A DNA stretch of 64,000 nt, taken from NCBI GenBank assembly GCA_965178125.1, contig OZ237770.1, forward strand, positions 1-64,000, written 5' to 3'. How positions within the stretch are numbered: the first letter of the stretch is position 1; each line of letters starts with the position of its first letter. The translations under genes and the position numbers were made by a program. The DNA is from Bilabrum cf. latius. Taxonomy: Eukaryota. Of the stretch, positions 1 through 50,579 are shown in pieces. A model generated the notes under the pieces. The model did not search any database. It worked only from the letters and a program-made list of their open reading frames with translations, and was not told where the DNA came from.

Positions 1-589
1 ACCCTAACCCTAACCCTAACCCTAACCCTAACCCTAACCCTAACCCTAACCCTAACCCTAACCCTAACCCTAACCCTAACCCTAACCCTAACCCTAACCC
101 TAACCCTAACCCTAACCCTAACCCTAACCCTAACCCTAACCCTAACCCTAACCCTAACCCTAACCCTAACCCTAACCCTAACCCTAACCCTAACCCTAAC
201 CCTAACCCTAACCCTAACCCTAACCCTAACCCTAACCCTAACCCTAACCCTAACCCTAACCCTAACCCTAACCCTAACCCTAACCCTAACCCTAACCCTA
301 ACCCTAACCCTAACCCTAACCCTAACCCTAACCCTAACCCTAACCCTAACCCTAACCCTAACCCTAACCCTAACCCTAACCCTAACCCTAACCCTAACCC
401 TAACCCTAACCCTAACCCTAACCCTAACCCTAACCCTAACCCTAACCCTAACCCTAACCCTAACCCTAACCCTAACCCTAACCCTAACCCTAACCCTAAC
501 CCTAACCCTAACCCTAACCCTAACCCTAACCCTAACCCTAACCCTAACCCTAACCCTAACCCTAACCCTAACCCTAACCCTAACCCTAA
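1..589. repeat. Terminal telomeric tract (CCCTAA)n, TTAGGG type
   Basis: Perfect CCCTAA hexamers run from position 1, with the C-rich strand at the 5' end as expected for a left chromosome end. Confidence 0.97.
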
Positions 590-3500
590 ACCCTGTGAAA
601 TTCTTCATACACCCATATCGGCGCCGCGCGGCCAGAACGGAACCTGGGGAATATTTGGCCCATGTTTTGCCCCCAGGCCGTCCCGATGCAGTTTGAACGG
701 TCTTCATATCACCTGTAGTTGCCGAGATCGTAGCACGTCGTTTTTCGGTGTGAAATTCTTCATACACCCATATCGGCGCCGCGCGGCCAGAACGGAACCT
801 GGGGAACATTTGGCCCATGTTGTGCCCCCAGGCCGTCCCGATGCAGTTTGAACGGTCTTCATATCACCTGTAGTTGCCGAGATCGTAGCACGTCGTTTTT
901 CGGTGTGAAATTCTTCATACACCCATATCGGCGCCGCGCGGCCAGAACGGAACCTGGGGAACATTTGGCCCATGTTGTGCCCCCAGGCCGTCCCGATGCA
1001 GTTTGAACGGTCTTCATATCACCTGTAGTTGCCGAGATCGTAGCACGTCGTTTTTCGGTGTGAAATTCTTCATACACCCATATCGGCGCATACACCCATA
1101 TCGGCGCCGCGCGGCCAGAACGGAACCTGGGGAACATTTGGCCCATGTTGTGCCCCCAGGCCGTCCCGATGCAGTTTGAACGGTCTTCATATCACCTGTA
1201 GTTGCCGAGATCGTAGCACGTCGTTTTTCGACAAATATTGAAGATGAAAATATTTTTTCCCCGACCCTGTCCCTGACTTTATATTAGATACCCTAACCCT
1301 AACCCTAACCCTAACCCTAACCCTAACCCTAACCCTAACCCTAACCCTAACCCTAACCCTAACCCTAACCCTAACCCTAACCCTAACCCTAACCCTAACC
1401 CTAACCCTAACCCTAACCCTAACCCTAACCCTAACCCTAACCCTAACCCTAACCCTAACCCTAACCCTAACCCTAACCCTAACCCTAACCCTAACCCTAA
1501 CCCTAACCCTAACCCTAACCCTAACCCTAACCCTAACCCTAACCCTAACCCTAACCCTAACCCTAACCCTAACCCTAACCCTAACCCTAACCCTAACCCT
1601 AACCCTAACCCTAACCCTAACCCTAACCCTAACCCTAACCCTAACCCTAACCCTAACCCTAACCCTAACCCTAACCCTAACCCTAACCCTAACCCTAACC
1701 CTAACCCTAACCCTAACCCTAACCCTAACCCTAACCCTAACCCTAACCCTAACCCTAACCCTAACCCTAACCCTAACCCTAACCCTAACCCTAACCCTAA
1801 CCCTAACCCTAACCCTAACCCTAACCCTAACCCTAACCCTAACCCTAACCCTAACCCTAACCCTAACCCTAACCCTAACCCTAACCCTAACCCTAACCCT
1901 AACCCTAACCCTAACCCTAACCCTAACCCTAACCCTAACCCTAACCCTAACCCTAACCCTAACCCTAACCCTAACCCTAAACCCTGTGAAATTCTTCATA
2001 CACCCATATCGGCGCCGCGCGGCCAGAACGGAACCTGGGGAATATTTGGCCCATGTTTTGCCCCCAGGCCGTCCCGATGCAGTTTGAACGGTCTTCATAT
2101 CACCTGTAGTTGCCGAGATCGTAGCACGTCGTTTTTCGGTGTGAAATTCTTCATACACCCATATCGGCGCCGCGCGGCCAGAACGGAACCTGGGGAACAT
2201 TTGGCCCATGTTGTGCCCCCAGGCCGTCCCGATGCAGTTTGAACGGTCTTCATATCACCTGTAGTTGCCGAGATCGTAGCACGTCGTTTTTCGGTGTGAA
2301 ATTCTTCATACACCCATATCGGCGCCGCGCGGCCAGAACGGAACCTGGGGAACATTTGGCCCATGTTGTGCCCCCAGGCCGTCCCGATGCAGTTTGAACG
2401 GTCTTCATATCACCTGTGGTCTTCATATCACCTGTAGTTGCCGAGATCGTAGCACGTCGTTTTTCGGTGTGAAATTCTTCATACACCCATATCGGCGCCG
2501 CGCGGCCAGAACGGAACCTGGGGAACATTTGGCCCATGTTGTGCCCCCAGGCCGTCCCGATGCAGTTTGAACGGTCTTCATATCACCTGTAGTTGCCGAG
2601 ATCGTAGCACGTCGTTTTTCGACAAATATTGAAGATGAAAATATTTTTTCCCCGACCCTGTCCCTGACTTTATATTAGATACCCTAACCCTAACCCTAAC
2701 CCTAACCCTAACCCTAACCCTAACCCTAACCCTAACCCTAACCCTAACCCTAACCCTAACCCTAACCCTAACCCTAACCCTAACCCTAACCCTAACCCTA
2801 ACCCTAACCCTAACCCTAACCCTAACCCTAACCCTAACCCTAACCCTAACCCTAACCCTAACCCTAACCCTAACCCTAACCCTAACCCTAACCCTAACCC
2901 TAACCCTAACCCTAACCCTAACCCTAACCCTAACCCTAACCCTAACCCTAACCCTAACCCTAACCCTAACCCTAACCCTAACCCTAACCCTAACCCTAAC
3001 CCTAACCCTAACCCTAACCCTAACCCTAACCCTAACCCTAACCCTAACCCTAACCCTAACCCTAACCCTAACCCTAACCCTAACCCTAACCCTAACCCTA
3101 ACCCTAACCCTAACCCTAACCCTAACCCTAACCCTAACCCTAACCCTAACCCTAACCCTAACCCTAACCCTAACCCTAACCCTAACCCTAACCCTAACCC
3201 TAACCCTAACCCTAACCCTAACCCTAACCCTAACCCTAACCCTAACCCTAACCCTAACCCTAACCCTAACCCTAACCCTAACCCTAACCCTAACCCTAAC
3301 CCTAACCCTAACCCTAACCCTAACCCTAACCCTAACCCTAACCCTAACCCTAACCCTAACCCTAACCCTAACCCTAACCCTAACCCTAACCCTAACCCTA
3401 ACCCTAACCCTAACCCTAACCCTAACCCTAACCCTAACCCTAACCCTAACCCTAACCCTAACCCTAACCCTAACCCTAACCCTAACCCTAACCCTAACCC

Positions 3501-5797
3501 TAACCCTAACCCTAACCCTAACCCTAACCCTAACCCTAACCCTAACCCTAACCCTAACCCTAACCCTAACCCTAACCCTAACCCTAACCCTAACCCTAAC
3601 CCTAACCCTAACCCTAACCCTAACCCTAACCCTAACCCTAACCCTAACCCTAACCCTAACCCTAACCCTAACCCTAACCCTAACCCTAACCCTAACCCTA
3701 ACCCTAACCCTAACCCTAACCCTAACCCTAACCCTAACCCTAACCCTAACCCTAACCCTAACCCTAACCCTAACCCTAACCCTAACCCTAACCCTAACCC
3801 TAACCCTAACCCTAACCCTAACCCTAACCCTAACCCTAACCCTAACCCTAACCCTAACCCTAAACCCTGTGAAATTCTTCATACACCCATATCGGCGCCG
3901 CGCGGCCAGAACGGAACCTGGGGAATATTTGGCCCATGTTTTGCCCCCAGGCCGTCCCGATGCAGTTTGAACGGTCTTCATATCACCTGTAGTTGCCGAG
4001 ATCGTAGCACGTCGTTTTTCGGTGTGAAATTCTTCATACACCCATATCGGCGCCGCGCGGCCAGAACGGAACCTGGGGAACATTTGGCCCATGTTGTGCC
4101 CCCAGGCCGTCCCGATGCAGTTTGAACGGTCTTCATATCACCTGTAGTTGCCGAGATCGTAGCACGTCGTTTTTCGGTGTGAAATTCTTCATACACCCAT
4201 ATCGGCGCCGCGCGGCCAGAACGGAACCTGGGGAACATTTGGCCCATGTTGTGCCCCCAGGCCGTCCCGATGCAGTTTGAACGGTCTTCATATCACCTGT
4301 AGTTGCCGAGATCGTAGCACGTCGTTTTTCGGTGTGAAATTCTTCATACACCCATATCGGCGCCGCGCGGCCAGAACGGAACCTGGGGAACATTTGGCCC
4401 ATGTTGTGCCCCCAGGCCGAGGCCGTCCCGATGCAGTTTGAACGGTCTTCATATCACCTGTAGTTGCCGAGATCGTAGCACGTCGTTTTTCGACAAATAT
4501 TGAAGATGAAAATATTTTTTCCCCGACCCTGTCCCTGACTTTATATTAGATACCCTAACCCTAACCCTAACCCTAACCCTAACCCTAACCCTAACCCTAA
4601 CCCTAACCCTAACCCTAACCCTAACCCTAACCCTAACCCTAACCCTAACCCTAACCCTAACCCTAACCCTAACCCTAACCCTAACCCTAACCCTAACCCT
4701 AACCCTAACCCTAACCCTAACCCTAACCCTAACCCTAACCCTAACCCTAACCCTAACCCTAACCCTAACCCTAACCCTAACCCTAACCCTAACCCTAACC
4801 CTAACCCTAACCCTAACCCTAACCCTAACCCTAACCCTAACCCTAACCCTAACCCTAACCCTAACCCTAACCCTAACCCTAACCCTAACCCTAACCCTAA
4901 CCCTAACCCTAACCCTAACCCTAACCCTAACCCTAACCCTAACCCTAACCCTAACCCTAACCCTAACCCTAACCCTAACCCTAACCCTAACCCTAACCCT
5001 AACCCTAACCCTAACCCTAACCCTAACCCTAACCCTAACCCTAACCCTAACCCTAACCCTAACCCTAACCCTAACCCTAACCCTAACCCTAACCCTAACC
5101 CTAACCCTAACCCTAACCCTAACCCTAACCCTAACCCTAACCCTAACCCTAACCCTAACCCTAACCCTAACCCTAACCCTAACCCTAACCCTAACCCTAA
5201 CCCTAACCCTAACCCTAACCCTAACCCTAACCCTAACCCTAACCCTAACCCTAACCCTAAACCCTGTGAAATTCTTCATACACCCATATCGGCGCCGCGC
5301 GGCCAGAACGGAACCTGGGGAATATTTGGCCCATGTTTTGCCCCCAGGCCGTCCCGATGCAGTTTGAACGGTCTTCATATCACCTGTAGTTGCCGAGATC
5401 GTAGCACGTCGTTTTTCGGTGTGAAATTCTTCATACACCCATATCGGCGCCGCGCGGCCAGAACGGAACCTGGGGAACATTTGGCCCATGTTGTGCCCCC
5501 AGGCCGTCCCGATGCAGTTTGAACGGTCTTCATATCACCTGTAGTTGCCGAGATCGTAGCACGTCGTTTTTCGGTGTGAAATTCTTCATACACCCATATC
5601 GGCGCCGCGCGGCCAGAACGGAACCTGGGGAACATTTGGCCCATGTTGTGCCCCCAGGCCGTCCCGATGCAGTTTGAACGGTCTTCATATCACCTGTAGT
5701 TGCCGAGATCGTAGCACGTCGTTTTTCGGTGTGAAATTCTTCATACACCCATATCGGCGCCGCGCGGCCAGAACGGAACCTGGGGAACATTTGGCCC
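590..5797. repeat. Four subfamily-A 155-bp satellite cassettes separated by internal telomere tracts
   Basis: Cassettes lie at 590-1290, 1981-2681, 3864-4552 and 5261-5797 (the last lacks the cap). Internal (CCCTAA)n tracts lie at 1291-1980, 2682-3863 and 4553-5260. All four share the left junction ccctaaaccctgtgaaattc. Confidence 0.95.
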
Positions 5798-6430
5798 AAC
5801 CCTAACCCTAACCCTAACCCTAACCCTAACCCTAACCCTAACCCTAACCCTAACCCTAACCCTAACCCTAACCCTAACCCTAACCCTAACCCTAACCCTA
5901 ACCCTAACCCTAACCCTAACCCTAACCCTAACCCTAACCCTAACCCTAACCCTAACCCTAACCCTAACCCTAACCCTAACCCTAACCCTAACCCTAACCC
6001 TAACCCTAACCCTAACCCTAACCCTAACCCTAACCCTAACCCTAACCCTAACCCTAACCCTAACCCTAACCCTAACCCTAACCCTAACCCTAACCCTAAC
6101 CCTAACCCTAACCCTAACCCTAACCCTAACCCTAACCCTAACCCTAACCCTAACCCTAACCCTAACCCTAACCCTAACCCTAACCCTAACCCTAACCCTA
6201 ACCCTAACCCTAACCCTAACCCTAACCCTAACCCTAACCCTAACCCTAACCCTAACCCTAACCCTAACCCTAACCCTAACCCTAACCCTAACCCTAACCC
6301 TAACCCTAACCCTAACCCTAACCCTAACCCTAACCCTAACCCTAACCCTAACCCTAACCCTAACCCTAACCCTAACCCTAACCCTAACCCTAACCCTAAC
6401 CCTAACCCTAACCCTAACCTAAAACCCTAC
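5798..6430. repeat. Internal telomeric tract with variant repeats at its right end
   Basis: (CCCTAA)n ending in acctaaaaccctac. Confidence 0.95.
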
Positions 6431-7256
6431 CCTTCATCGGCTCGTATCAGCGCCGCGCGACATAAACGGAACCTGGGGAACATTTGGCCCATGTTGTGCC
6501 CCAAGGCCGTCCCAATGCAGTTTGAACGGTCTTCATATGTCCTGTAGTTGCAGAGATCTCAATCCGCGAAAATTCAGCATGATATCCTTCATCGGCTCAT
6601 ATCGGCGCCGCGCGACATAAACGGAGCCTGGGGAACATTTGGCCCATGTTGTGCCCCAAGGCCGTCCCAATGCAGTTTGAACGGTCTTCATATGTCCTGT
6701 AGTTGCCGAGATCTCAATCCGCGAAAATTCAGCATGAAATCCTTCATCGGCTCGTATCAGCGCCGCGCGACATAAACGGAACCTGGGGAACATTTGGCCC
6801 ATGTTGTGCCCCAAGGCCGTCCCAATGCAGTTTGAACGGTCTTCATATGTCCTGTAGTTGCCGAGATCTCAATCCGCGAAAATTCAGCATGATATCCTTC
6901 ATCGGCTCATATCGGCGCCGCGCGACATAAACGGAACCTGGGGAACATTTGGCCCATGTTGTGCCCCAAGGCCGTCCCAATGCAGTTTGAACGGTCTTCA
7001 TATGTCCTGTAGTTGCCGAGATCTCAATCCGCGAAAATTCAGCATGAAATCCTTCATCGGCTCGTATCAGCGCCGCGCGACATAAACGGAACCTGGGGAA
7101 CATTTGGCCCATGTTGTGCCCCAAGGCCGTCCCAATGCAGTTTGAACGGTCTTCATATGTCCTGTAGTTGCCGAGATCTCAATCCGCGAAAATTCGACAA
7201 AAATTGAAGATGAAAATATTTTTTCCCCGACCCTGTCCCTGACTTTATAATAGATA
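6431..7256. repeat. Subfamily-B 155-bp satellite cassette with cap
   Basis: About 5 monomers share the cores ggaacctggggaacatttg and atgcagtttgaacggtcttcatat with subfamily A. It ends in the cap ...ccccgaccctgtccctgactttataatagata. Confidence 0.93.
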
Positions 7257-7887
7257 CCCTAACCCTAACCCTAACCCTAACCCTAACCCTAACCCTAACC
7301 CTAACCCTAACCCTAACCCTAACCCTAACCCTAACCCTAACCCTAACCCTAACCCTAACCCTAACCCTAACCCTAACCCTAACCCTAACCCTAACCCTAA
7401 CCCTAACCCTAACCCTAACCCTAACCCTAACCCTAACCCTAACCCTAACCCTAACCCTAACCCTAACCCTAACCCTAACCCTAACCCTAACCCTAACCCT
7501 AACCCTAACCCTAACCCTAACCCTAACCCTAACCCTAACCCTAACCCTAACCCTAACCCTAACCCTAACCCTAACCCTAACCCTAACCCTAACCCTAACC
7601 CTAACCCTAACCCTAACCCTAACCCTAACCCTAACCCTAACCCTAACCCTAACCCTAACCCTAACCCTAACCCTAACCCTAACCCTAACCCTAACCCTAA
7701 CCCTAACCCTAACCCTAACCCTAACCCTAACCCTAACCCTAACCCTAACCCTAACCCTAACCCTAACCCTAACCCTAACCCTAACCCTAACCCTAACCCT
7801 AACCCTAACCCTAACCCTAACTCTAACCCTAACCCTAACCCTAACCCTAACCCTAACCCTAACCCTAACCCCTACCCTACCCCCTAA
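7257..7887. repeat. Internal telomeric tract
   Basis: (CCCTAA)n with variants (ctctaa, cccctac) towards the right end. Confidence 0.95.
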
Positions 7888-10337
7888 CCGGCCTATCTAA
7901 CCCGCATCGTATAGCACGCACATCCTGTCTGTGGGCCGAGAAATCGGCGTTCTCCGTATAGCTAGGGTTACGAAAGTGGCATATTTGGGTGTTTAATGGT
8001 CCATATCTCAGCCGATACTGGTCGTTGATGGCTGCGGCTTCGTCATGGCCGGGTCACGACTGCTTTCGCGTCGGTTACTTTTCGAACTCGGAGTCGAATT
8101 TCACACCCCTTCCTGCCCTCACTGTGCCCTCGGACTGTATCATGGAGGTGCTCCAGACCCACAGGCATGTGCTGCGACGCAGTTTGACCACCAGCATGCA
8201 TCACGGCGAATGGTAGAGTCAGAGCCATGAAATCCATGTGTTCCAGGATATGTGATCTCGGATTGCCGAAGTAGCCCGGCGTGGCATTTTTATAGAATGC
8301 ATATTCAAACGCACTCATGCCGCATCTGGTTGCTGAGCTATCGGGACTTGCGCAAATGTTTGGGCTAGCCCGAATCTTTGATCCATGTTTTCTCAGCCCG
8401 GAAATATGTCCAATGCCTTACACCTTCCACATGATGTCTACGCACCTCTGTTCCCTGGAATTACTCGGAGTTTCATAATTTTCAACCAAGTCTCACTCTT
8501 ACCGGTCTGTGACATGCACCCTATTCCTAGCCTTGCCCCTTTGTGGGGGAGTTGCAAATTCGATTTGCTGATTCATGAGTTTGCATTATTGCACTGTATC
8601 ATTTACGGTACTTGGTTTTCTGACATGATTAAAAAATCCACCCAATTTTCGGGGCCAACCTCCTCTCGCCGGTATATGACATACACCCTATTCCTAGCCT
8701 TGCCCCTTTGTGGGGGAGTTGCAAATTTGATTTGCTGATTCATGAGTTTGCATTATTGCACTGTATCATTTACGGTACTTGGTTTTCTGACATGATTAAA
8801 AAATCCACCCAATTTTCGGGGCCAACCTCCTCTCGCCGGTATATGACATACACCCTATTCCTAGCCTTGCCCCTTTGTGGGGGAGTTGCAAATTCGATTT
8901 GCTGATTCATGAGTTTGCATTATTGCACTGTATCATTTACGGTACTTGGTTTTCTGACATTAATGAAGATCGCCAGTCACCCAGTCACTGTGGGCGTGGC
9001 GCCGACCAGATGAGCACTTACTTGTATTGCTCGATTGCTCGAGAGCTGTGTGCCAGCCATTCTCCAAACTTCGCACACATGACACATGATGATGACTCAA
9101 AGTGCGAATGAACGGCTGAAATCAAGAAATCTCATTTACAGCTAATGAACGCCCCTAAGGAAAACCTCTTACCTAACCCGAACCCATGTACGTATGCAAA
9201 CCCAACCATGTAGGTGTGCAAACCCCATACTTGCAATGCTTGATGTAATAGAATCACGGGGAACATTTGCCCCCAGTTGTGGTCCCAGGCCGTCCCGATG
9301 CAGTTTGAACGGTCTTCATATCTCATCTGGTTGCCGAGATCGCCGCGCGCATTTTTTCTGCATGACAATCTTCGTCCCACCATACTGTCGCCGCGCGGTA
9401 TAAACGGAACCTGGGGAACATTTGCCCCCTGTTGTGGTCCCAGGCCGTCCCGATGCAGTTTGAACGGTCTTCATATCTCCTGTGGTTGCCGAGATCGCCG
9501 CGCGCATTTTTTCTGCCTGAAAATCTTCGTCCCCCCATACTGTCGCCGCGCGGTCAAAACGGAATCTGGGGAACATTTGCCTAACATTGTACCCCCAGGC
9601 CGTCCCGATGCAGTATGAACGGTCTTCATATCTCATCTGGTTGCCGAGATCGTCGCGCGCATTTTTTCTGCATGACAATCTTCGTCCAGCCATATTGTCG
9701 CCGCGCGGTATAAACGGAACCTGGGGAACATTTGCCCCCAGTTGTGGTCCCAGGCCGTCCCGATGCAGTTTGAACGGTCTTCATATCTCATCTGGTTGCC
9801 GAGATCGCCGCGCGCATTTTTTCTGCATGACAATCTTCGTCCAGCCATATTGTCGCCGCGCGGTATAAACGGAACCTGGGGAACATTTGCCCCCAGTTGT
9901 GGTCCCAGGCCGTCCCGATGCAGTTTGAACGGTCTTCATATCTCATCTGGTTGCCGAGATCGTCGCGCGCATTTTTTCTGCATGACAATCTTCGTCCAGC
10001 CATATTGTCGCCGCGCGGTCAAAACGGAACCTGGGGAACATTTGCCCCCAGTTGTACCCCCAGGCCGTCCCGATGCAGTTTGAACGGTCTTCATATCTCA
10101 TCTGGTTGCCGAGATCGTTGCGCGCATTTTTTCTGCATGACAATCTTCGTCCAGCCATATTGTCGCCGCGCGGTCAAAACGGAACCTGGGGAACATTTGC
10201 CCCCAGGCCGTCCCGATGCAGTTTGAACGGTCCTCATATCTCATCTGGTTGCCGAGATCGTCGCGCGCATTTTTTCGACAAAAAGTGAAGATGAAAAAAA
10301 ATTTTCCCCGACCCTGTCCCTGACTTTATATTAGATA
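7888..10337. repeat. Subtelomeric composite unit, copy 1: unique segment, 167-bp repeats, subfamily-C 155-bp array and cap
   Basis: Near-identical to 10970-13431 (offset 3082). The 167-bp repeat spans about 8511-8960 and the 155-bp array about 9257-10276. Confidence 0.92.
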
Positions 10338-10546
10338 CCCTAACCCTAACCCTAACCCTAACCCTAACCCTAACCCTAACCCTAACCCTAACCCTAACCC
10401 TAACCCTAACCCTAACCCTAACCCTAACCCTAACCCTAACCCTAACCCTAACCTAACCCTAACCCTAACCCTAACCCTAACCCTAACCCTAACCCTAACC
10501 CTAACCCTAACCCTAACCCCTACCCTAACCTAACCCTAACCCTAAC
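10338..10546. repeat. Short internal telomeric tract with variant repeats
   Basis: (CCCTAA)n with cctaa and cccctac variants. Confidence 0.93.
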
Positions 10547-13431
10547 TCCGGCCTATCTAACCCGCATCGTATAGCACGCACATCCTGTCTGTGGGCCGAG
10601 AAATCGGCGTTCTCCGTATAGCTAGGGGTATAGCTAGGGTTACGAAAGTGGCATATTTGGGTGTTTAATGGTCCATATCTCAGCCGATACTGGTCGTTGA
10701 TGGCTGCGGCTTCGTCATAGCCGGGTCACGACTGCTTTCGCGTCGGTTACTTTTCGAACTCGGAGTCGAATTTCACACCCCTTCCTGCCCTCACTGTGCC
10801 CTCGGACTGTATCATGGAGGTGCTCCAGACCCACAGGCATGTGCTGCGACGCAGTTTGGCCACCAGCATGCATCACGGCGAATGGTAGAGCCGAACCAGT
10901 TTACCTGCTCCTATCTGATTCCGGATTGCAAGCGAACATGTGCCCGCGTCGTCTCGACTAGTTCCGACTCCGGCCTATCTAACCCGCATCGTATAGCACG
11001 CACATCCTGTCTGTGGGCCGAGAAATCGGCGTTCTCCGTATAGCTAGGGTTACGAAAGTGGCATATTTGGGTGTTTAATGGTCCATATCTCAGCCGATAC
11101 TGGTCGTTGATGGCTGCGGCTTCGTCATGGCCGGGTCACGACTGCTTTCGCGTCGGTTACTTTTCGAACTCGGAGTCGAATTTCACACCCCTTCCTGCCC
11201 TCACTGTGCCCTCGGACTGTATCATGGAGGTGCTCCAGACCCACAGGCATGTGCTGCGACGCAGTTTGACCACCAGCATGCATCACGGCGAATGGTAGAG
11301 TCAGAGCCATGAAATCCATGTGTTCCAGGATATGTGATCTCGGATTGCCGAAGTAGCCCGGCGTGGCATTTTTATAGAATGCATATTCAAACGCACTCAT
11401 GCCGCATCTGGTTGCTGAGCTATCGGGACTTGCGCAAATGTTTGGGCTAGCCCGAATCTTTGATCCATGTTTTCTCAGCCCGGAAATATGTCCAATGCCT
11501 TACACCTTCCACATGATGTCTACGCACCTCTGTTCCCTGGAATTACTCGGAGTTTCATAATTTTCAACCAAGTCTCACTCTTACCGGTCTGTGACATGCA
11601 CCCTATTCCTAGCCTTGCCCCTTTGTGGGGGAGTTGCAAATTCGATTTGCTGATTCATGAGTTTGCATTATTGCACTGTATCATTTACGGTACTTGGTTT
11701 TCTGACATGATTAAAAAATCCACCCAATTTTCGGGGCCAACCTCCTCTCGCCGGTATATGACATACACCCTATTCCTAGCCTTGCCCCTTTGTGGGGGAG
11801 TTGCAAATTTGATTTGCTGATTCATGAGTTTGCATTATTGCACTGTATCATTTACGGTACTTGGTTTTCTGACATGATTAAAAAATCCACCCAATTTTCG
11901 GGGCCAACCTCCTCTCGCCGGTATATGACATACACCCTATTCCTAGCCTTGCCCCTTTGTGGGGGAGTTGCAAATTCGATTTGCTGATTCATGAGTTTGC
12001 ATTATTGCACTGTATCATTTACGGTACTTGGTTTTCTGACATTAATGAAGATCGCCAGTCACCCAGTCACTGTGGGCGTGGCGCCGACCAGATGAGCACT
12101 TACTTGTATTGCTCGATTGCTCGAGAGCTGTGTGCCAGCCATTCTCCAAACTTCGCACACATGACACATGATGATGACTCAAAGTGCGAATGAACGGCTG
12201 AAATCAAGAAATCTCATTTACAGCTAATGAACGCCCCTAAGGAAAACCTCTTACCTAACCCGAACCCATGTACGTATGCAAACCCAACCATGTAGGTGTG
12301 CAAACCCCATACTTGCAATGCTTGATGTAATAGAATCACGGGGAACATTTGCCCCCAGTTGTGGTCCCAGGCCGTCCCGATGCAGTTTGAACGGTCTTCA
12401 TATCTCATCTGGTTGCCGAGATCGCCGCGCGCATTTTTTCTGCATGACAATCTTCGTCCCACCATACTGTCGCCGCGCGGTATAAACGGAACCTGGGGAA
12501 CATTTGCCCCCTGTTGTGGTCCCAGGCCGTCCCGATGCAGTTTGAACGGTCTTCATATCTCCTGTGGTTGCCGAGATCGCCGCGCGCATTTTTTCTGCCT
12601 GAAAATCTTCGTCCCCCCATACTGTCGCCGCGCGGTCAAAACGGAATCTGGGGAACATTTGCCTAACATTGTACCCCCAGGCCGTCCCGATGCAGTATGA
12701 ACGGTCTTCATATCTCATCTGGTTGCCGAGATCGTCGCGCGCATTTTTTCTGCATGACAATCTTCGTCCAGCCATATTGTCGCCGCGCGGTATAAACGGA
12801 ACCTGGGGAACATTTGCCCCCAGTTGTGGTCCCAGGCCGTCCCGATGCAGTTTGAACGGTCTTCATATCTCATCTGGTTGCCGAGATCGCCGCGCGCATT
12901 TTTTCTGCATGACAATCTTCGTCCAGCCATATTGTCGCCGCGCGGTATAAACGGAACCTGGGGAACATTTGCCCCCAGTTGTGGTCCCAGGCCGTCCCGA
13001 TGCAGTTTGAACGGTCTTCATATCTCATCTGGTTGCCGAGATCGTCGCGCGCATTTTTTCTGCATGACAATCTTCGTCCAGCCATATTGTCGCCGCGCGG
13101 TCAAAACGGAACCTGGGGAACATTTGCCTAACATTGTACCCCCAGGCCGTCCCGATGCAGTTTGAACGGTCTTCATATCTCATCTGGTTGCCGAGATCGT
13201 TGCGCGCATTTTTTCTGCATGACAATCTTCGTCCAGCCATATTGTCGCCGCGCGGTCAAAACGGAACCTGGGGAACATTTGCCCCACATTGTACCCCCAG
13301 GCCGTCCCGATGCAGTTTGAACGGTCCTCATATCTCATCTGGTTGCCGAGATCGTCGCGCGCATTTTTTCGACAAAAAGTGAAGATGAAAAAAAATTTTC
13401 CCCGACCCTGTCCCTGACTTTATATTAGATA
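10547..13431. repeat. Subtelomeric composite unit, copy 2, with a partial tandem duplication of its left ~340 bp
   Basis: 10547-10890 repeats 10968-11299. The remainder matches 7888-10337 and ends in the same cap. Confidence 0.92.
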
Positions 13432-14100
13432 CCCTAACCCTAACCCTAACCCTAACCCTAACCCTAACCCTAACCCTAACCCTAACCCTAACCCTAACCC
13501 TAACCCTAACCCTAACCCTAACCCTAACCCGAACCCTAACCCTAACCCTAACCCTAACCCTAACCCTAACCCTAACCCTAACCCTAACCCTAACCCTAAC
13601 CCTAACCCTAACCCTAACCCTAACCCTAACCCTAACCCTAACCCTAACCCTAACCCTAACCCTAACCCTAACCCTAACCCTAACCCTAACCCTAACCCTA
13701 ACCCTAACCCTAACCCTAACCCTAACCCTAACCCTAACCCTAACCCTAACCCTAACCCTAACCCTAACCCTAACCCTAACCCTAACCCTAACCCTAACCC
13801 TAACCCTAACCCTAACCCTAACCCTAACCCTAACCCTAACCCTAACCCTAACCCTAACCCTAACCCTAACCCTAACCCTAACCCTAACCCTAACCCTAAC
13901 CCTAACCCTAACCCTAACCCTAACCCTAACCCTAACCCTAACCCTAACCCTAACCCTAACCCTAACCCTAACCCTAACCCTAACCCTAACCCTAACCCTA
14001 ACCCTAACCCTAACCCTAACCCTAACCCTAACCCTAACCCTAACCCTAACCCTAACCCTAACCCTAACCCTAACCCTAACCCTAACCCTAACCCTAACCC
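13432..14100. repeat. Innermost internal telomeric tract
   Basis: (CCCTAA)n with one cccgaa variant near 13531. Confidence 0.96.
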
Positions 14101-14296
14101 GCACTGTGGTGGTCGGCAGGTCCGAGGGGTGCGCCGTGGATGAGGTCGCAGGCGCACTGTGGTGGTTGGCAGGTCCGAGGGGTGGGCCGTGGATGAGGAC
14201 GCAGGCGCACTGTGGTGTTTGGCAGGTCGGAGGTGTGCGCCGTGGATGAGGTCGCAGGCGCACTGTGGTGTTTGGCAGGTCCGAGGTGTGCGCCGT
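14101..14296. repeat. 53-bp GC-rich telomere-adjacent minisatellite (~3.7 copies)
   Basis: The unit gcactgtggtggtcggcaggtccgaggggtgcgccgtggatgaggtcgcaggc starts at 14101, 14154, 14207 and 14260. Confidence 0.9.
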
Positions 14297-14459
14297 GCGA
14301 TCCTTTTTTTTTTTTTGGATGAGCGGCCTGTGACTAGAAATCATAGATCCCAGATAAAAGCAAAAGAGGTGTACTCCACAACTGACCAAAATGGTTAGCA
14401 GCATAAATGACAGACTCCGTCATCCAGGCAGCGCGAATCGGTCTCTTGATCGACTGCAC

Positions 14460-16256
14460 TCAATGCGATCTTGCCGGGTAAGCTCTAGTCGTGTACCGCA
14501 CAGTACCAAGGTTGTCATAGTACTTAACGACAAAGCCAGCATCGTTGAAGTATACGCCTGCGAATCCAGAATCTGCAGTCACTGCAAGCTCCTCGATGAC
14601 TGCATCGCTGGAGTACGCCAGCTTTGCCCTGCGATTCTCGTCCACTGTCAGGGGGCAGGTCGACTCGGCGGCGTGCACGTACTTAAGAGCCCCGGCCGGG
14701 ATGTCCTGCTTGTGCGAGGCAGCATAGCAGCACTCATGGAAGGACCCGGCCACAACATAAGCCACGTTGTTATTTTCGATGTGTGCCTGGATGTGGTCAT
14801 GGCCACACAGGTAGTGCGCCTACGAAATCACAAGAGTGGAGTGGCCGGAGTTGGCAAGGGGCGCATAGGTGATCAACTTATGGAGCTGGTGTACAGGAAG
14901 TATCCCCGCTGTATGGCAGGCAGGCGTACAGTAGGATCAGCTCACGCCGTACTTCTCGAGCAGGGGAGCCAGCTTGTCCACAAGGTCCTGCGTGGGTCCG
15001 TGCTGGCCAGGGCTCCACACCGGGTAGTGCCCCCCCACAAACACGAAGTCTGCAGAGCTCTTGGCGAGCTACTCATCGATCCACGCGTACCAGTCTGTGT
15101 TCTTCACCTCGGCGGGGACATCCTGCGAGCGCAAAGCAAGCAGCAAACAGCTAGCAGGGGAGCGAGGCCTAGGGAGCGGGGGGGCGGCCTGGACCAAATA
15201 CCGCGCTGGCAGAGGCAAGGCAGCTAACCGGGTGGCTAGCTCTGTGCTCACGATGGTGCGGGTCTCGTTGTCAGTGATCCCTGTCATGATCACGGTGTCC
15301 ACCATGACCACATCCACCGCGTACTTCTTGCCGGACTCATCTGATTCAAGCGTGTCCGAGAACGTGTAGAAGCTGCGAAGAAACTTCCAGGCGCTCAGAA
15401 GCAAGACCGACTCATCAACATGCAACAGACCTTAGCAGCAAAGCGCACTGGTACGAATAGTACGACTTACTAATCGGGATAGTTCCAGCGCTTGCTCAGG
15501 CTGCTGTACGCGATCTGGGCCGAGACATTGCCGCGGTGGTCATGGTTTCCAGCATTTACCCAGAACGGCACATCCTCGAGTTCAGCCGCATCGAATGGTC
15601 GCTCAAAAGTGTCCTGAAACCGAGACGAATGGACATCACCTTGGATACCGTGCGAGTAGAAGCTGCGCGAATCTTGGAGGATGTACGCAATTTAAAGCGA
15701 GTTCTAGAAGTCACTGCTATGGCAACCATTTTTGTTTAATATATTTTATCTAACTTGTCGCCGTTCAGCAGAATGAATGCCGGGGTACTGCGGAAGTGAG
15801 AAAACTTGGCAAGCGCCTTGCAGCAGCTGGCATGTCCCAATGCGCGGCGAACAAGACAGTCATCGCAGGATCAACTAACTCGTTCTTTGCCAGGGATCCA
15901 AGTCGACCAGCGGCAAGCTCTTCGCCAGCGGTGTAGTAGCTGCGCTGGCGTGATTGAAGCATGAGTAAGATGCGAGTGGTACGAAGTGCATTCTAACCCT
16001 TTCGTTAGCAATGGTAGATCGTCGCAGTAGGATGTAGGATATCCAGCGCATCTCACGGGGATGTCTCCTATCCACCCCAGTCACCCTGCGTACCAAAGGT
16101 ACAGATCAGCAGCAACCACCCTAGGTAAGCGTCGACAAGCTGATGACATGAACGTAGTCACGTAGTCGGGTGAACTTCACTCACAACTGAGAAGAACATG
16201 GATGAAGCCAGGGCGGACCCAGCGCTAGCAGCGCACATCAAAACGAAAGACCGCAT
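14460..16256 (-). CDS. Secreted purple/tartrate-resistant acid phosphatase (ACP5-like), multi-exon
   Basis: A signal-peptide-like start [11 protein letters not shown] is followed by the motifs [35 protein letters not shown] and CGHDH across GT-AG introns. In-frame TAG at 16068 and 15069; ends TGA. Confidence 0.88.
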
Positions 16257-29502: not shown

Positions 29503-30693
<1,191 letters not shown>

Positions 30694-31081
30694 AACTTCT
30701 AGTACTTGGTTGCAAGTCTATGATTGCCGCAAGAATATCAACCTCTTCTCGCCGCAGCTATTTGATGGCCCTATGTACAGCTAGTTCTCCCACTGCCCAC
30801 GTCTATGCTGCTGCTCTGTATGTCAAAGGAATATATATTGGGATTAACCCACCTCAAGTACAACGAATGGTAGTTTCCACTTACCTCTTTTTGGTTCTTC
30901 ATTAAAACCATTCTGGCTCCGGATTTGATTCAGCAGTGCACCCGTCACCATGCATCTCAATTGATTCTATCCAATCGAGTGGTGTAGAGTCTTTCATTGT
31001 ACATAAATCTCCGTCACCAGACGCATCTGGTCAGATATTGAATGGTTAAAGCCTGATTTAGCTTGATCTACTTCAGAAAGA

Positions 31082-41103: not shown

Positions 41104-41351
41104 GTTTTGAACCTAATGTGTTTTGGTATGAGTCCTTGGAAACTAGACTGGCGTGTCAGCTGATGGAGAATCGAGTCCGAATCATATTGCGGAACCAGTA
41201 ATGCGCGGCGGCGTGACCGGAGGGTGCCAGTGATTCGTGCTCGTTCAGCGCGGCCAGAGTGCAACAAGGCATGTGGGCGACTACGCATTGAAATGGACGC
41301 AGCAAGTCAGTACTAATTGAATTTCTTTTGGTGTCTTGACCGAGCTGGTAC

Positions 41352-44300
41352 ATGTCAAGGAATACTGACGAATCAGACGGCATGCCCATTCAGTCACCTA
41401 GTAGGCAAGAAACTCTGAGCAATTCTCGTGATCTCACCTCAACAAATGCGGCGTCTGTAGGGTCAGTACAATGTAATTCTGGCCCCTAGCTTGTTGATGC
41501 GGCGCTAGAGAGCAATGTGAACGCTCACCGCCCTGCCCCAGGCATGGTCGGGCAGCCTCTGGATGTATTCCTGATAGACGAGGATTTAGAAGACCGTGGC
41601 CTGTCGCATTTATCTAGTATTGGGCCATACCATAATTTACCCTATATGAGGGATGAGCCGCGGTCGCCTTCAAGGCCAGCAGGGTTGCGGCGCCGGTCAG
41701 AGGCGGCGCTAGCAAGCTCAGCACCTCTACACCCAACAGAGGACAGCCCGTTCAATGACAGCGCAACGTTGATTTAGCAAAATAAAGTGCCAGTTTCACG
41801 GGATACGGCTGCAGTAAGGATGGCGCGTCTGGATGTGACGCCTGGCCGAGGGCAGTCTGCTGACCACGCGACCATGGAGGCAGTTGATTTTCTGGGCAGA
41901 CCACTTCGCATGGACACTGGCAGGCCGGCTGTTCAGCACCAGACCACAGTCTCACATGTCAAATAGCCGCGTGATCTAACAGAGCGCGGCCGGGGCGAGC
42001 TCCCAGCCACCGTCCTCGCCGCAGTGCTGGCAGATGGCTCCTTGCGACCGTTCGGTACGGCCCCCCCTGCTGCAGAGCTGTCTCCTGCCCTTCGAGCGCA
42101 CTACGACTCCGTGCGATAGGGCGACGACGATGGTCCAGCTGCCGCCAGCATGGTAAGCGAGGCGCTGGCGGCCACTGGGCTCATCTCCAGCGGGGTCCTC
42201 GAGAGTACCGGAGGGAACGGTGGGGGGGGTGGCCCGGGGGATATCCCCGGGGGACTTGGGGGTCAATCCGGTGGGAACCGCTCCAATGCCTCGAAAGAGT
42301 CTGATTAGGCGGTTCCTTTGGGCGCCCCTGCCCTGTGGCTGTTCCGGTGCCCCACCGCCACCCGGTCGTTTAGCGAGCTGCTGCTGGGGCAGCCGTGGTT
42401 CGACCCGCTCAGCTTGGCGTTCATCTTCGCCAACTGTGTGCTACTGGCAATTGAGACCCCTGCATCATTGCAATCCAGCGCTGCAAATGACAATGATGCA
42501 GCATATAATGCGCAGGTGCTGCGTGGCATTGATCTCTTGTTCACAATCTACTTCACACTCGAGCTGATGGTTCGCATGTTCGCACTGGGCATAGACACCA
42601 AAGACTCGGGAAGCTTTTTTCGATCCGGGTGGAATTGGCTAGACCTCGCCGTTGTGGTAGAAGGGATTGTCAGCCAGCTGGACGTGCTGGCCGTTGGGAT
42701 CAGCCTGGCACCGCTGCGGGCAGTGCGTGCGCTGCGGCCACTCAGGAGCATCGATCGGCTGCCTGGGCTGCGGCAGCTGGTAGATTCCATCTTGTTCTCC
42801 CTTCCCATGCTTCTGAATGCTTTCGCTGTCATGTTGCTCTTCTTTGCCGTGTATGCGGGCATCGGGGTGCAGCTGTGGAGAGGGGATCTGAGGCAGCGGT
42901 GCTTCGATGCCAGCACAGGACACTTGGTTGTGGGTGACAGTAGGCCATGTGGGGGCTTGCATTCGTGCAGCGCAGGTGGAAATGGGCTGCACGTGTATGA
43001 TGGCAATAGTAGCGAGGCTGTATCTGGTGTTGCTGGGCTTGTAGGCTCGGTTGACTCCGAACGACAGGTGTGTGGCCTGCACGATCTCTCTCCTGCGGCC
43101 GGCACGCTGGGCTTTGACAATGTTCTGCAGGCTGGTCTACTGCTGATGTCTATCCTCACACAGGAAGGATGGTCTAGCGCCATGTACGCAGTGCAAGACG
43201 CCTCCACGCCCTGGGCATGGGTGTACTTCGTGACTGCCCTGCTGCTCGGAGGCGTTCTCCTGGTCCACTCTCTGGCCGCCATCATGCTCATGAAATTTAA
43301 CGAGTCCACCAGGACCCGAGAACGCGAGGCTAAGATGCAGGCTGCGGTGGAACAAGCCAGAGATCGCACGAGGGCGCGCGTGCTTGAGCAGGAGAGGTAG
43401 CGCAAGTAGGACGCCCTGAGGAAATCGAACCAGTCTGAGGCGGCGGCGGGCAGGCTAGCCATCATGCGCAGGATGAAAGAGCTAGGCGAGGCCCTGCGCA
43501 GTAAGCCCGAGGGAGCAGCGCCCAAGGGCGCGTCAGCTTCGATGGAAAGCGGTCGCGCCACTGCGGACGGGTAGGGCGAGCCAGCTGTGCCCATTGCAAA
43601 CGGCAGCGGAAGTGCTGGCGTCATGGATAGCGATAGCAACCGTGACAGTGACAGCGACGATGATGATGATGATGATGACAGCAGAGGGGGCAATCTCTCA
43701 GACAGTGCGAGGACAGATAGCAGCGTAGAATTCGCCGACATATCAGTGCTGGGCCAGCTACCCGAAGTGGATACATTCGCAGTGCCTGTTGGGCTAGATG
43801 GGCTCAAAGCTGAGGCCGTTGACCCCGACCGAGGGCGTGCATCTTCAGGGTCATCAGAACCATCCTATCGCTCGCTGGACACCCCCATGCACCAGAAACA
43901 GCGGAGGTGCAGTGCTGGCAGCAGCATTGAAGCAGATGAATCTGGCCATCAAGAGCTAGGATCGCTGCAGGATAATATGCACGACAAAGGAACAAATCGT
44001 CACAGCGGGCGTATCCCTGCCACGCCCGCTGCATCGGTGGCCGCACATAGCTCCGTCCGACTGCCGCATGCAGCTCGTGTTGCTCTTTGTCCCAGCTCTG
44101 CTCATCCTGCATCGAAGTCAAGCGCGAGCGCAGGAGACGCAGCGAGCTAGCGTCGGCCGATCCAGCCAGCATCAGCGCAAAACAGCAGGCTATCAGACAG
44201 CATACTGTCCGCCACAAACAATCATGCGTATGGGGAGCACGGGGGCACCGTGTAGCTTGCTGCAGCAATACTGCAGGATGCATTAGTCCGATCTGATGGC

Positions 44301-47300
44301 GATGCAGACGAAGCGGGCGCCCTGCTTCGCGGCAAGTCGCACGCCTGGTGGTCAGCACACCTAATCGGTGGGAATAGGGTAGAGCGCGCGCAGGGCGACT
44401 CAGCCGACGGAGACTCGTCGGTATGCGAGGGCTGTCTTGGATGCATGGCAGCAGCACAGGACTGCGTATGTCCCAGGGATAGCACCGCAGTGCAGTACTG
44501 CCAGCTGAACGTGTCTCTTCCGCTAGAGCTCTACGTGGTGCGGCGCAGCTGGTTTGACTCGCTCATGACAATCACGGTGCTGGTCAATACAGTGGCACTG
44601 GCGCTGCAGCACCATGGCATGTCATCAGAACTAGAACAAGGTTTGAACGCGACCAACACGATCATCACTGGGATTTTTGCAGGTGAGCTGGCCCTGAAAC
44701 TGCTGGGAATGGGGCTCGCTGGATACTGCTCGGACGTGTTCAACGTGTTCGACGGGCTCGTCACCCTGATCGCTGTGGTGGAGCTGGTGGTGGCAGGGCC
44801 AGGCGGTGGATCGGGGCAAGGGCGCGCCATCTCGGTGCTGCGGCTGCTTCGGATTGTGAGAGTCTTTCGGCTGGTTAGGCACTGGGAGAGCATGCAGCAC
44901 CTGCTGCGGGTCCTCGTGAGGACGCTCCCGCAGTTCGGGTACCTGGCCCTGCTTCTGTTGCTCTTCCTCTTCGTGTACTCTGTCATGGGGATGCACCTGC
45001 TGGCGGGTGCATATCAGGATGACCTGTCGAGGAGCCTTGATGCCACCGAGCCTTTTGCCAGGGCTCGTAGAGCTGCACTCGGGTTGCCCACAAACACAAC
45101 GGGTGGATACACTGGGTTTTCACCGGAAGAATTGGAGGCTGTGCTCGGCGAGACTGCAAGCACACGCGGCATCAACGGCGGCCTGCCCCTCTTCGAGCTC
45201 CCAAGAAATCACTTCGACAGCATGGCCTACTCGTTCATCACCATGTTCCAGGTGCTTGCAGGGCAGGGCTGGAACCACATCGCAAGGGACGTGGCAGCGT
45301 ACGCTTCCCCTTGGTACCTGATTTTGATCGTGTCTTGGGTATTCGTAGGCAGGTTCATCCTGCTGAACCTGTTCCTGGCGATCACCATTGCTGCCTTTGA
45401 CGACAGCGGGGAGGATACAGGGACTAGCGGTCATGAGAACGCCGCTGACTTGCAGCACACTGCTATGTCAATGTTAAGGCAAGCCAAGCAGGTCCAGGAC
45501 TTTCACTCGGTCAACTCTGGGGTTAGTATCCAGTCCGGTGTTGTTTTGGCCCGGAAAGGCACCTTTCAGCAACTGGTCGCCAGCGCCATCAGCTTGCCGC
45601 GGCTGGCCAAAGCCACTAATTCCGAGGCCCAGAGTGCCACCGAGTCTTCCCGGCCAGGGAGCAGTCTGCAGCGGTTTCACGACAGCATCGGCAGATCGGA
45701 CCACATCGGTGGAGCAGCAACGAATCTGACGAATACGCCATTAGCAACAGGTTCGGAGGCACCCCAACGTGAAATGGGCAGCGGGAAAGGAGCAGCAACC
45801 AGCCATGGACCTGCCAGCACAGGTCCCGGTGCAGTGACGTCTGGCGAATCGGTCGTTGCTGATTCCCGTGAAGGAGCTTCTTCCTCTCTATCACCGAGCA
45901 GCCGTGGCTCGTCCATCATAGCAAGTGTGGACGATGGGCAGGTGGACTGGATCGATGACGCCGACTGTGGCGCCCCTGAACCTGCGGTGCAGCCCCCAAC
46001 GGCTATTCGGGGGAGTTCTGATCCGCCTGCAACGCCCCCGCAAAAGCAGCTTCTCGTCCCATCTGCGATACTTCGAAGTGCACAAGGCAAGCTGATCAAA
46101 GCAAGCAGATCATAGGTCGGCAGCAAGGCAGCTGAACCTGACTCACGGTGCTCAGTAACCGGGGCAGCATTACTTTCAGAGTCAGAGTCAGAGTCAGGGT
46201 CTGAGCCAGAGCCAGAGCCAGAGCCAGAGCCAGAGTCAGAGTTACACCAAGCTTCCATTCATACCGGTAGCTCCTTTGCACACTAGAGCAAAATCGGCGC
46301 CGATTCGTGTAGTCAGTCGAAGGATCAGCCTGCCGCAGGAATGCGATCGAGACTGAGTGCAAGACCTAGTCTGCTGGGCGCAAGGGCATAGTCCTGTAGC
46401 TCAGTTTCTGAGGTGCTGGGCGCTGGGGCAGGGTCTCGTAGCTCAGCATCTGAGGTGCAGCGAAGCAAGGCCGTGGCCTTATCTGCAGCATCGAGGCCTC
46501 TCGCATGCAGCGCCACCGGTGTGACTCGCAAGGAGTGCATGGACATGGGTAGGATCAGGCAAGTCGCCCCACCGGATGACACGACACATTGGACCGCCGC
46601 ACCAAGTCAATCCCTTCAACTTCAACGCAGCCCGAGTACACGATCGAGTCCCAGCACGTGCGCGTGCACCTTCCTCCCGCGGGACGGCGAGCGGCCCAGC
46701 GACCTTCGATCTCTTCGTCCTGAGACCGACTACTGGGCTCTGCAGCCTGCAGCACTGACTCGTCCACGACTGCGGCAACGTCGAGCCACGAGCGACAAGC
46801 ACACAGCGCAAGCTCCAGATGTAGCCCAAGCACCAGGTGTACCACTAGTGCCCACGTGCGTCATGATCACATGCGAATGCGATGCAACGCGAGCTAACTG
46901 CCTATGCTGTGATGCTGGTGGGGTATGTGCTGACCGTGCGGGCCAGTGCCTGGATTGGGAGCTGGTCTGCAGGTGGGGCTCACGCGACTCGCACTGGCGA
47001 ATATCTACGCGAGGCATAACGCAGGTACTAACTATAATTAGTACCATAGCTATGGCTGTATCAGGACATCCAAGCGGGCAAACAAGCGCCTGGGTGCGTG
47101 CCATTGATGTGCTGGCGTCTCTGGCCTTCGCTGTCGAGCTGGCCCTGCGGTGCATACGACACGGCGTGCTAATGCACAAGCAGGCAGTTCTACGATCTGT
47201 ACAAGGAATACTGGACGCGGCATTCGTGCTTGGGTCGGTGATCGAGCTTGCAGCTGTCCTGCCTTCCGCAGGGGTCGACCGCGAGTCGATTCCTCGTGCG

Positions 47301-50300: not shown

Positions 50301-50579
50301 GGGATGAATCGGGTGCGCGGGGCCGCGCTGATGGTGGGCAGGCACGCAATCCTGCGACAGGGCCTCAAGCGCGCCGGGACGGGCATTACTAGACCATAGA
50401 ATGGAAATACGGAGATTCAGGCTGCAGCATAGGACTAGTCCCAAGCGGCACCCCCTTACAATTAGTTGGGGCGGAAACCCCAAAACGTCGTTAAGCTTGG
50501 GACTGCAAAGCAAGGACAGTAGGGGGATCCAGGTGGCGCGGCTACACTGGAGGCATCTGCCCCAGGTTCGCAAGTGTAA
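41352..50579 (+). CDS. Four-domain voltage-gated Ca2+/Na+-type channel alpha subunit (intronless, 3075 aa with TAG=Gln)
   Basis: Four 6-TM repeats with S4 segments (LRAVRALRPLRSI; LRLLRIVRVFRL; ARVLRCTRPFRS; LRFARLFRVAR), pore loops TQEGW/AGQGW/SGEAW/TGEGW and a C-terminal EF-hand-like segment. One frame from ATG 41352 to TAA 50577 with about 26 TAG. Confidence 0.9.

What the first reader, a model, noticed from the sequence alone, without database searches (positions are those of the whole stretch)
1229..1296. Conserved ~60-bp cap joined at the same nucleotide to telomere repeats in all three satellite subfamilies
Seen: cgacaaa..tgaagatgaaaa..ttttccccgaccctgtccctgactttata(t/a)tagata|ccctaa ends the cassettes at 1290, 2681, 4552, 7256, 10337 and 13431. 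It is far more conserved than the variable parts of the A/B/C monomers, and it contains degenerate hexamers (cccga, ccctgt, ccctga). The left ends differ between subfamilies. Inference: a fixed right end and variable left end fit a + strand template whose CCCUAA/CCCTAA 3' end anneals to the G-overhang and is copied (telomere-primed reverse transcription or break-induced replication). The cap would be the cis signal.
Basis: partly seen in the sequence, partly recalled or inferred. Interest (0 to 1): 0.7.

Follow-up and report, generated by a model that had tools for sequence, protein, structure and literature searches.

The report
Telomere-riding element without reverse transcriptase
The conserved short sequence is the fixed inner end of a 14-kb, two-gene mobile element stacked in cut-short copies inside this single-celled eukaryote's telomeres; it looks like telomere retrotransposons, but no reverse transcriptase was found in it, so it may spread by DNA copying or an unknown enzyme.

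Summary
Observation confirmed and extended. The cap is the centromere-side end of a telomere-embedded element, F1. Genome-wide, 231 of 232 cap cores run straight into CCCTAA, at 28 of 36 ends of contigs C1-C18, always in the same polarity. The window's "satellite cassettes" are the shortest members of a nested series (46 bp to 14.4 kb; 52 distinct healed outer ends among 84 units). Long copies carry two divergent ORFs (2328 aa and about 515 aa) under purifying selection. They have no Pfam, PHROG or PDB match and no RT, helicase or HUH motif. Sister families F3 and F4 end in the same GATA|CCCTAA; F2 ends differently but is arranged alike. The genome reads TAG as Gln and has an open TERT. None of 34 RT loci fetched (of 84 hits) shows the cap; no hammerhead was found. 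DNA-level copying is strongly indicated (junction blocks shared between contigs, a 12.2-kb triple repeat). Best model (0.5): copying primed in a telomere tract (BIR-like), aborted at random, healed by telomerase. RNA-templated copying (0.25) is neither shown nor excluded. The cap as a cis signal is plausible, unproven.

The parts
2..589 (+). outermost telomere tract, (CCCTAA)98
590..1228 (+). F1 stub, A-type 155-bp array, healed outer junction at about 590-593
1229..1290 (+). cap = fixed inner end of F1 (last ~51 nt conserved), joined to CCCTAA at 1291
1291..1980 (+). internal telomere tract, 115 repeats
1981..2681 (+). F1 A-type stub, same outer junction as 590 (tandem duplicate); cap 2620-2681
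2682..3863 (+). internal telomere tract, 197 repeats
3864..4552 (+). F1 A-type stub, same outer junction; cap 4491-4552
4553..5260 (+). internal telomere tract, 118 repeats
5261..5799 (+). A-type stub that has lost its cap: monomer joined to the tract at a telomere-like site; the same inner junction occurs at the left end of C17
5800..6417 (+). internal telomere tract, 103 repeats
6418..7256 (+). F1 B-type stub; cap 7195-7256
7257..7868 (+). internal telomere tract with a variant repeat
7869..10337 (+). F1 C-type stub: spacer with 167-bp repeats (8502-8960), array 9258-10276, cap 10276-10337; 98% identical to part of the long C-type copy at the left end of C8
10338..10516 (+). short internal tract with a variant repeat; tract pattern and next outer junction recur at the right end of C11
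10517..13431 (+). F1 C-type stub; cap 13370-13431
13432..14097 (+). innermost telomere tract, followed by a 53-bp repeat (14100-14297) taken as the native subtelomere

Best explanation
F1 is a two-gene element that lives only inside telomeres and spreads by DNA-templated copying primed in a telomere tract. A chromosome's G-rich 3' end pairs with an internal (CCCTAA)n tract just inside a donor copy and is extended through the cap, the arrays and, if synthesis lasts, the two genes. Synthesis stops at a random point, and telomerase adds a new tract. The inner junction is inherited, never remade, so it is fixed; the outer end varies. Stops inside a donor's outer tract copy whole blocks, and copying from stubs makes ever shorter stubs. 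SHOWN: polarity, fixed inner and nested outer ends, block duplication with tracts, two ORFs under purifying selection, an open TERT. INFERRED: strand invasion, telomerase as the healer, growth at the tip, and a role of the element's proteins (the small one perhaps binding its own array) and of the terminal motif in promoting copying.
For: 231 of 232 cores are joined. 52 distinct outer junctions in 84 tract-flanked units, median 1.18 kb; 10 of 52 recur on more than one contig. At the right end of C36 a 12.2-kb block of four units occurs three times, with near-equal tract lengths and one difference in 10,367 nt between two of the blocks; the MoTeR preprint reads such patterns as D-loop/BIR products (10.1101/845669, passages). 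8 of 9 distinct junctions upstream of the small ORF lie in or beyond the antisense big ORF. Two D2 copies on different contigs end 10 nt apart, 3.1 kb upstream of the small ORF, as re-healing would give. F3/F4 lie inside F1 at 9 of 10 places holding both. TERT domains are open under TAG=Gln. No RT in the element and no cap in 34 RT loci. In yeast, BIR often stops at internal telomere tracts and is healed by telomerase (PMC7736798, abstract). TALT blocks flanked by telomere-like sequence spread between ends (PMC4595603, passages).
Against: Healed junctions show no telomere-like seeds (mean fit 1.16 vs 1.08 background, 50 junctions), and the yeast abstract says non-ITS sequences rarely end BIR unless it is made less processive. 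The skew to short copies (40 of 52 at most 3.3 kb, 4 at most 120 bp) is what aborted reverse transcription gives (recalled). Pure BIR does not need a conserved terminal motif, yet F1, F3 and F4 share one. D2 copies are too alike to trace descent (2 variable of 4921 columns), so the 10-nt pair could be a hot spot. Block duplication also occurs in arrays of RT-coding MoTeR1 and its partner, so it does not show how single units first arrive.
Confidence: 0.5

Rival explanations
1. Telomere-primed reverse transcription (terminon/HeT-A-like): a C-strand-sense RNA ending in cap-CCCUAA pairs with the G-overhang and is copied by an RT supplied in trans; truncated cDNAs are healed, and BIR only amplifies them later.
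For: Polarity and nested outer truncation match EN- Penelope-like elements and MoTeR/FoTeR (PMC6431247, 10.1101/845669, PMC12857005; passages). Short-length skew. Seedless healing. The small ORF is on the predicted sense strand. The genome holds 84 RT matches.
Against: No RT in F1, F2 or the F3 pieces. No cap or tract in 34 of 84 RT loci fetched, with 0.7-3.7 kb each; by recalled motifs those whose RT motifs were printed look like LINE- and DIRS-type RTs. No Rfam match or stable fold at the cap. Long copies need a 7-14 kb RNA antisense through the big ORF; no pile-up at the promoter. The RVT_1 search missed TERT itself, so a distant RT could be missed.
Confidence: 0.25
2. The element's own protein joins a fixed element end to the telomere 3' end (one-ended strand transfer from displaced single-stranded DNA, HUH-like in logic); the conserved terminal motif is its recognition site.
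For: F1, F3 and F4 share CCGA(C/T)CCT...TGAC...GATA|CCCTAA, although F1 and F3 proteins are only 21-28% identical. Both ORFs have dN/dS below 1. The big protein has no homolog outside near-identical or sister fragments.
Against: No HUH, RT-type xDD or P-loop pattern in F1 or F3 proteins. The F1-F3 end alignment (shuffle p 0.016) scores no better than F1-F2 (p 0.0075). F2 lacks the motif yet is arranged alike.
Confidence: 0.13
3. Telomerase itself copies the element RNA: the 3' end mimics the telomerase RNA template without a boundary, then TERT switches back to its own RNA to cap the product.
For: TERT is the only RT found that is expected to act at chromosome tips. Seedless, degenerate-repeat healing. 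Many very short units.
Against: Copies reach 14 kb, far beyond known TERT read-through (recalled). The single interior GATACCCTAACCC site shows no cap likeness by eye.
Confidence: 0.05
4. Passive hitchhiker: a host subtelomeric gene pair once flanked by a tract is shuffled by ordinary telomere recombination; the cap is homogenised by conversion and has no function.
For: Cap divergence (2.4%) matches big-ORF dS between subfamilies (0.007-0.04). One cap variant occurs in several array subfamilies, which suggests exchange.
Against: Four families show the same behaviour. ORFs were found only at contig ends (9 of 9 matches). The terminal motif is shared across deeply diverged families.
Confidence: 0.07

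Closest known systems
MoTeR1/MoTeR2 (Magnaporthe) and FoTeR (Fusarium); 10.1101/845669, PMC12857005 (passages)
   Same: Head-to-tail arrays in TTAGGG telomeres, 5' end to the tip, truncated copies healed by new telomere, BIR/D-loop amplification; MoTeR2 has no RT.
   Different: No RT-REL partner found sharing the end. Tracts between units are 11-355 repeats (median 63) versus 0.5 to about 20. Two divergent orphan genes and a 155-bp array.
Terminons / Athena, EN- Penelope-like elements; PMC6431247, PMC8557442 (passages)
   Same: Large multi-ORF elements, 3' end attached to telomere repeats, 5' truncation capped by repeats, terminal repeat arrays, introns retained.
   Different: No PLE RT and no hammerhead found; the largest ORF points toward the tip, antisense to the would-be template.
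C. elegans TALT and yeast Y'; PMC4595603 (passages); Y' details recalled
   Same: A DNA block flanked by telomere tracts is copied to many ends by recombination.
   Different: Here telomerase appears intact, copies are nested truncations, and no helicase motif is present; TALT is captured host DNA, Y' keeps both ends (recalled).
Drosophila HeT-A (recalled; only a search listing seen)
   Same: No RT of its own, long repeat-rich 3' part, truncated arrays at tips.
   Different: No poly(A) junction, telomerase repeats between units, no Gag match, no TART-like partner found.
Chlamydomonas Sultan/Suber; PMC8287924 (passages)
   Same: Species-specific repeats next to telomeres with telomere-like borders.
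   Different: Sultan arrays lie inside the telomere-proximal subtelomere and heal at seeds; F1 units lie between full tracts, heal without seeds and derive from a gene-bearing element.

Membership tests
EN- Penelope-like (Athena/Coprina/terminon) | PLE-type RT in the element | tested here: not met
   No Pfam hit in four long F1/F2 ORFs; no xDD motif in F1; PDB profile search of the F1/F3 shared domain empty.
EN- Penelope-like (Athena/Coprina/terminon) | hammerhead next to the 3' telomeric stretch | tested here: not met
   Rfam E<=1: 0 matches in window 1-15000 and in 5 further loci; cap folds no better than shuffles. Non-canonical forms not excluded.
EN- Penelope-like (Athena/Coprina/terminon) | fixed 3' join to telomere repeats, 5' truncation capped by repeats | tested here: met
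EN- Penelope-like (Athena/Coprina/terminon) | autonomous partner elsewhere in the genome | tested here: inconclusive
   34 of 84 RT loci read, none with cap; 51 contig ends read; the search missed TERT, so sensitivity is limited.
MoTeR/FoTeR telomeric non-LTR elements | RT plus REL endonuclease ORF, or shared ends with such an element | tested here: not met
   An RT ORF with a REL-like C-terminus (motif recalled) lies at C37:10224-13742 but has no cap or tract beside it.
MoTeR/FoTeR telomeric non-LTR elements | head-to-tail arrays separated by telomere tracts, uniform polarity | tested here: met
Y'/telomere-linked helicase elements | encoded helicase | tested here: not met
   No Pfam helicase, no P-loop.
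TALT-like recombination templates | block flanked by telomere tracts copied between ends as DNA | tested here: met
   10 of 52 junction classes on more than one contig; 12.2-kb triple repeat.
TALT-like recombination templates | telomerase absent | tested here: not met
   TERT RBD and RT region open over 1131 codons under TAG=Gln; activity not testable.
HUH transposons (Helitron/Replitron) | HUH Rep domain | tested here: inconclusive
   No H-hydrophobic-H in F1/F3 proteins and no Pfam hit; the fold model was unusable (pLDDT 34).
any retroelement | RNA intermediate | not testable with these tools
   Only contigs were available; no strand or end information.

The most novel reading that the evidence does not exclude
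F1/F3/F4 are an undescribed class of mobile element with no RT, transposase or helicase, whose 2328-aa orphan protein (or hijacked telomerase) recognises the conserved GATA|CCCTAA end and attaches single copies to chromosome tips, building a second, element-based layer of telomere on top of working telomerase.
Probability: 0.18. Interest if true: 0.9.

Novelty: new variant of a known kind. Interest (0 to 1): 0.64.

Why it matters
Fixed inner ends with nested, telomere-healed outer ends are usually read as the mark of telomeric retrotransposition; even for MoTeR the authors could not separate transposition from BIR (10.1101/845669, section 28 part 1). Here the same pattern covers most chromosome ends examined, in four families, with no RT found in the element and with telomerase apparently intact. 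It is either a natural test that DNA copying alone builds HeT-A/terminon-like arrays, or a pointer to an unknown mobilising enzyme. It also supplies two selected orphan proteins, one of which diverges together with its own tandem array.

Tried and rejected
Ribozyme or structured RNA at the cap: Rfam 0 hits; z-scores -1.0 to +0.8 for 6 sequences. RT near a chromosome end as partner: C37:10.2-13.7 kb and C43 RTs carry no cap. Interior cap at C14:701367 as a counter-example: the copy starts right after an N run, so most likely a scaffold join. Terminal inverted repeats: no cap-like inverted end in the long copies; the only inverted matches were internal tandem repeats. Cap derived from the telomerase RNA gene: one interior site, no likeness. 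Protein identity: Pfam, PHROGs and PDB sequence searches empty apart from one weak PHROG (E 0.33); word-index search for the big ORF empty; HMMER over 1.84 billion proteins gave 8 fragments, all matching F1 or F3 at 49-99%; F2 gave 4 fragments at 83-88%. AlphaFold models were poor (pLDDT 34 and 47); fold searches of the small-ORF model were uninformative (best E 3.9; best Z 5.3, rmsd 4.0, 74 aligned). RNA: no RNA holder listed; contigs give no strand or end. Tracing descent among D2 copies failed for lack of variation. A language-model atlas search of the proteins was not obtained, so remote homology stays open. Three look-ups of earlier scan findings returned nothing.

Full report
Observation. 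The window is the left end of contig C36 of a 48.6-Mb, 111-contig genome. Its first 14.1 kb alternate (CCCTAA)n tracts with seven non-telomeric units. Six end in the cap at the stated positions, in one phase. The unit at 5261-5799 lacks it. The three capped A units share one outer junction, so the window holds fewer independent events than caps. The conserved part is the last ~51 nt: 97.6% identity over 55 pairs of 11 subfamily representatives that I picked from 33 distinct ends, against 75.3% for the last monomer and 83.5% for its best window.

Genome-wide. There are 232 exact cores and 231 complete cap-CCCTAA junctions. Only the first 100 places are listed (C1-C18). They cover 28 of 36 ends, plus strand at left ends and minus at right ends. 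One is interior (C14:701367) and its copy begins at an N run. I read 55 stretches (51 contig ends, mostly chosen for carrying caps). Of 136 segments ending at a tract, 100 were F1, 11 F3, 9 F2, 4 F4 and 12 other. The 12 are: five F1 pieces with a broken inner end (four distinct junctions), one F1 unit misfiled because of a variant tract, four bacteria-like contig tips and two unassigned. Of 20 ends fetched without prior selection, 9 held a complete unit.

What the cap belongs to. The units form a nested series sharing the inner end. Among 84 F1 units with a tract on both sides there are 52 distinct outer junctions, from 46 bp to 14.4 kb, median 1.18 kb. The longest copies read, from the tip: variable tandem repeats, a 2328-aa ORF pointing to the tip, a ~0.9-kb interval, a ~515-aa ORF pointing inward, spacer, 155-bp array, cap. 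No fixed outer end was found. These frames need TAG as a sense codon. TAG=Gln is supported by two of four TAG codons in the aligned part of a DIM1 homologue, which face Gln in the human protein, and by an open TERT frame with 8 TAGs. dN/dS is 0.18-0.37 for the big ORF and 0.26-0.62 for the small ORF between subfamilies. One contig of run X1 (RNA status a guess; depth 4.9) skips 363 nt with GT..AG ends on the big-ORF strand just before its start. All 17 genomic copies examined keep that intron. This is a weak hint of expression, and it does not separate the models, because the intron is antisense to the proposed template and Penelope-like elements keep introns (PMC8557442, passages).

Sister families. 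F3 has the same layout with a different array; both ORFs are homologous to F1 (big 24-28% identity, hhalign probability 96%; small 21%, probability 75%). F4 is known only as stubs. F1, F3 and F4 all end CCGA(C/T)CCT...TGAC...GATA|CCCTAA; GATA plus three repeats occurs 263 times. The F3-F4 end match is strong (0 of 2000 shuffles). F1-F3 is modest (p 0.016) and no better than F1-F2 (p 0.0075), so the alignment test alone does not prove a motif. F2 is a 10-kb unit with one 2167-aa inward ORF and another fixed end, with the same nesting. F3/F4 lie inside F1 at 9 of 10 places holding both, which suggests growth at the tip.

Search for the enzyme. The ORFs match nothing outside their own lineage in Pfam, PHROGs, PDB or the protein collections. 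F1 and F3 proteins lack RT, P-loop and HUH patterns, and the fold models were uninformative. The genome has 84 RVT_1 matches. I fetched 34; none has cap or telomere repeats in the fetched flank, and those whose motifs were printed look LINE- or DIRS-like by recalled motifs. That search missed TERT, so a distant RT is not excluded. No hammerhead or stable fold was found at the cap.

Mechanism. DNA-level copying is strongly indicated: 10 of 52 junction classes recur on more than one contig, and a four-unit 12.2-kb block with its tracts is present three times. Copying from tracts, stopping at random and healing can alone give a fixed inner end, blocks and, by iteration, short stubs (inference). 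8 of 9 junctions upstream of the small ORF lie in or beyond the antisense big ORF, without a pile-up at the promoter. Against this stand seedless healing, the strong short skew and the shared terminal motif. Read-through RNA from an outer neighbour could also copy blocks. I put DNA copying at 0.5, an RT in trans at 0.25, an element-encoded joining enzyme at 0.13, telomerase read-through at 0.05 and passive hitchhiking at 0.07. The cap as a cis signal is about even: the big ORF is as homogeneous as the cap (dS 0.007-0.04) while small ORF and array are old (dS 0.24-0.56), so exchange near the tract could keep the cap uniform.

Comparison. It works like MoTeR2, terminon stubs or TALT. It fails the membership tests for EN- PLEs (no RT, no hammerhead), MoTeR (no RT-REL partner found), Y' (no helicase) and TALT (TERT present). 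Papers seen: passages of PMC6431247, PMC12857005, PMC4595603, PMC8557442 and PMC8287924; passages and section 28 part 1 of 10.1101/845669; abstract of PMC7736798; listing only for Replitrons (PMC10288648). HeT-A and Y' details are recalled. Eight literature searches listed no description of this element. The library holds open-licence papers only, no supplements were read, and the organism was not identified, so a genome paper could mention these repeats.

Verdict. Interest 0.64.

Noticed in passing
window 29506-30822 (-); L071: The nuclear code reads TAG as Gln while TAA and TGA end frames: two TAGs face Gln in human DIM1; TERT and many long ORFs open only so.
   Followed up: partly
L067:1-3441, L109:1-3802, L128:1-6566, L087 tip: Non-element DNA outside the outermost tract at four contig tips; it looks bacterial by gene content (by eye). 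Probably chimeric; one piece ends in the same last letters as the cap.
   Followed up: no
L055:7540-7612 (C14 about 699.6 kb): An N run joins ordinary genes to what looks like a chromosome end (F1 stub, tract, F3 stub, subtelomeric repeat); likely a scaffolding join.
   Followed up: partly
L084:8165-9703 vs L084:289-7272: Small ORF and array are deeply split into subfamilies (dS 0.24-0.56) while the big ORF is nearly uniform (dS 0.007-0.04): modular exchange, perhaps a protein evolving with its binding array.
   Followed up: partly
L130 and L067:5447-10000: Family F2: 10-kb telomere-embedded unit with an orphan 2167-aa ORF (dN/dS 0.21 between variants); weak likeness to the F3 big ORF over 92 columns (hhalign probability 32%).
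   Followed up: partly
L071:340-750: TERT carries a long Ala-Gly repeat insertion upstream of the RNA-binding domain.
   Followed up: no
L052:224-3742: RT ORF with a C-terminal cysteine motif and REL-like region (recalled motif), in several interior copies.
   Followed up: partly
window 8502-8960 and 9000-9160: The C-type spacer shares strings, by eye, with the 839-bp repeats at the outer end of long A-type copies.
   Followed up: no
L073:3943-5160; L066:751-5250: A 22-bp quasi-palindromic tandem repeat lies both at the outer end and before the array of D2 copies, 70-203 matches per copy.
   Followed up: partly
window 14100-14297: 53-bp G-rich repeat just inside the innermost tract; similar repeats follow the last tract at several other ends.
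   Followed up: no
window 41340-50576 (+), 50764-55176 (-), 62492-63313: An uninterrupted 3079-codon four-domain ion channel frame, an APC3/TPR gene, and a 96-bp tandem repeat inside an ORF.
   Followed up: no
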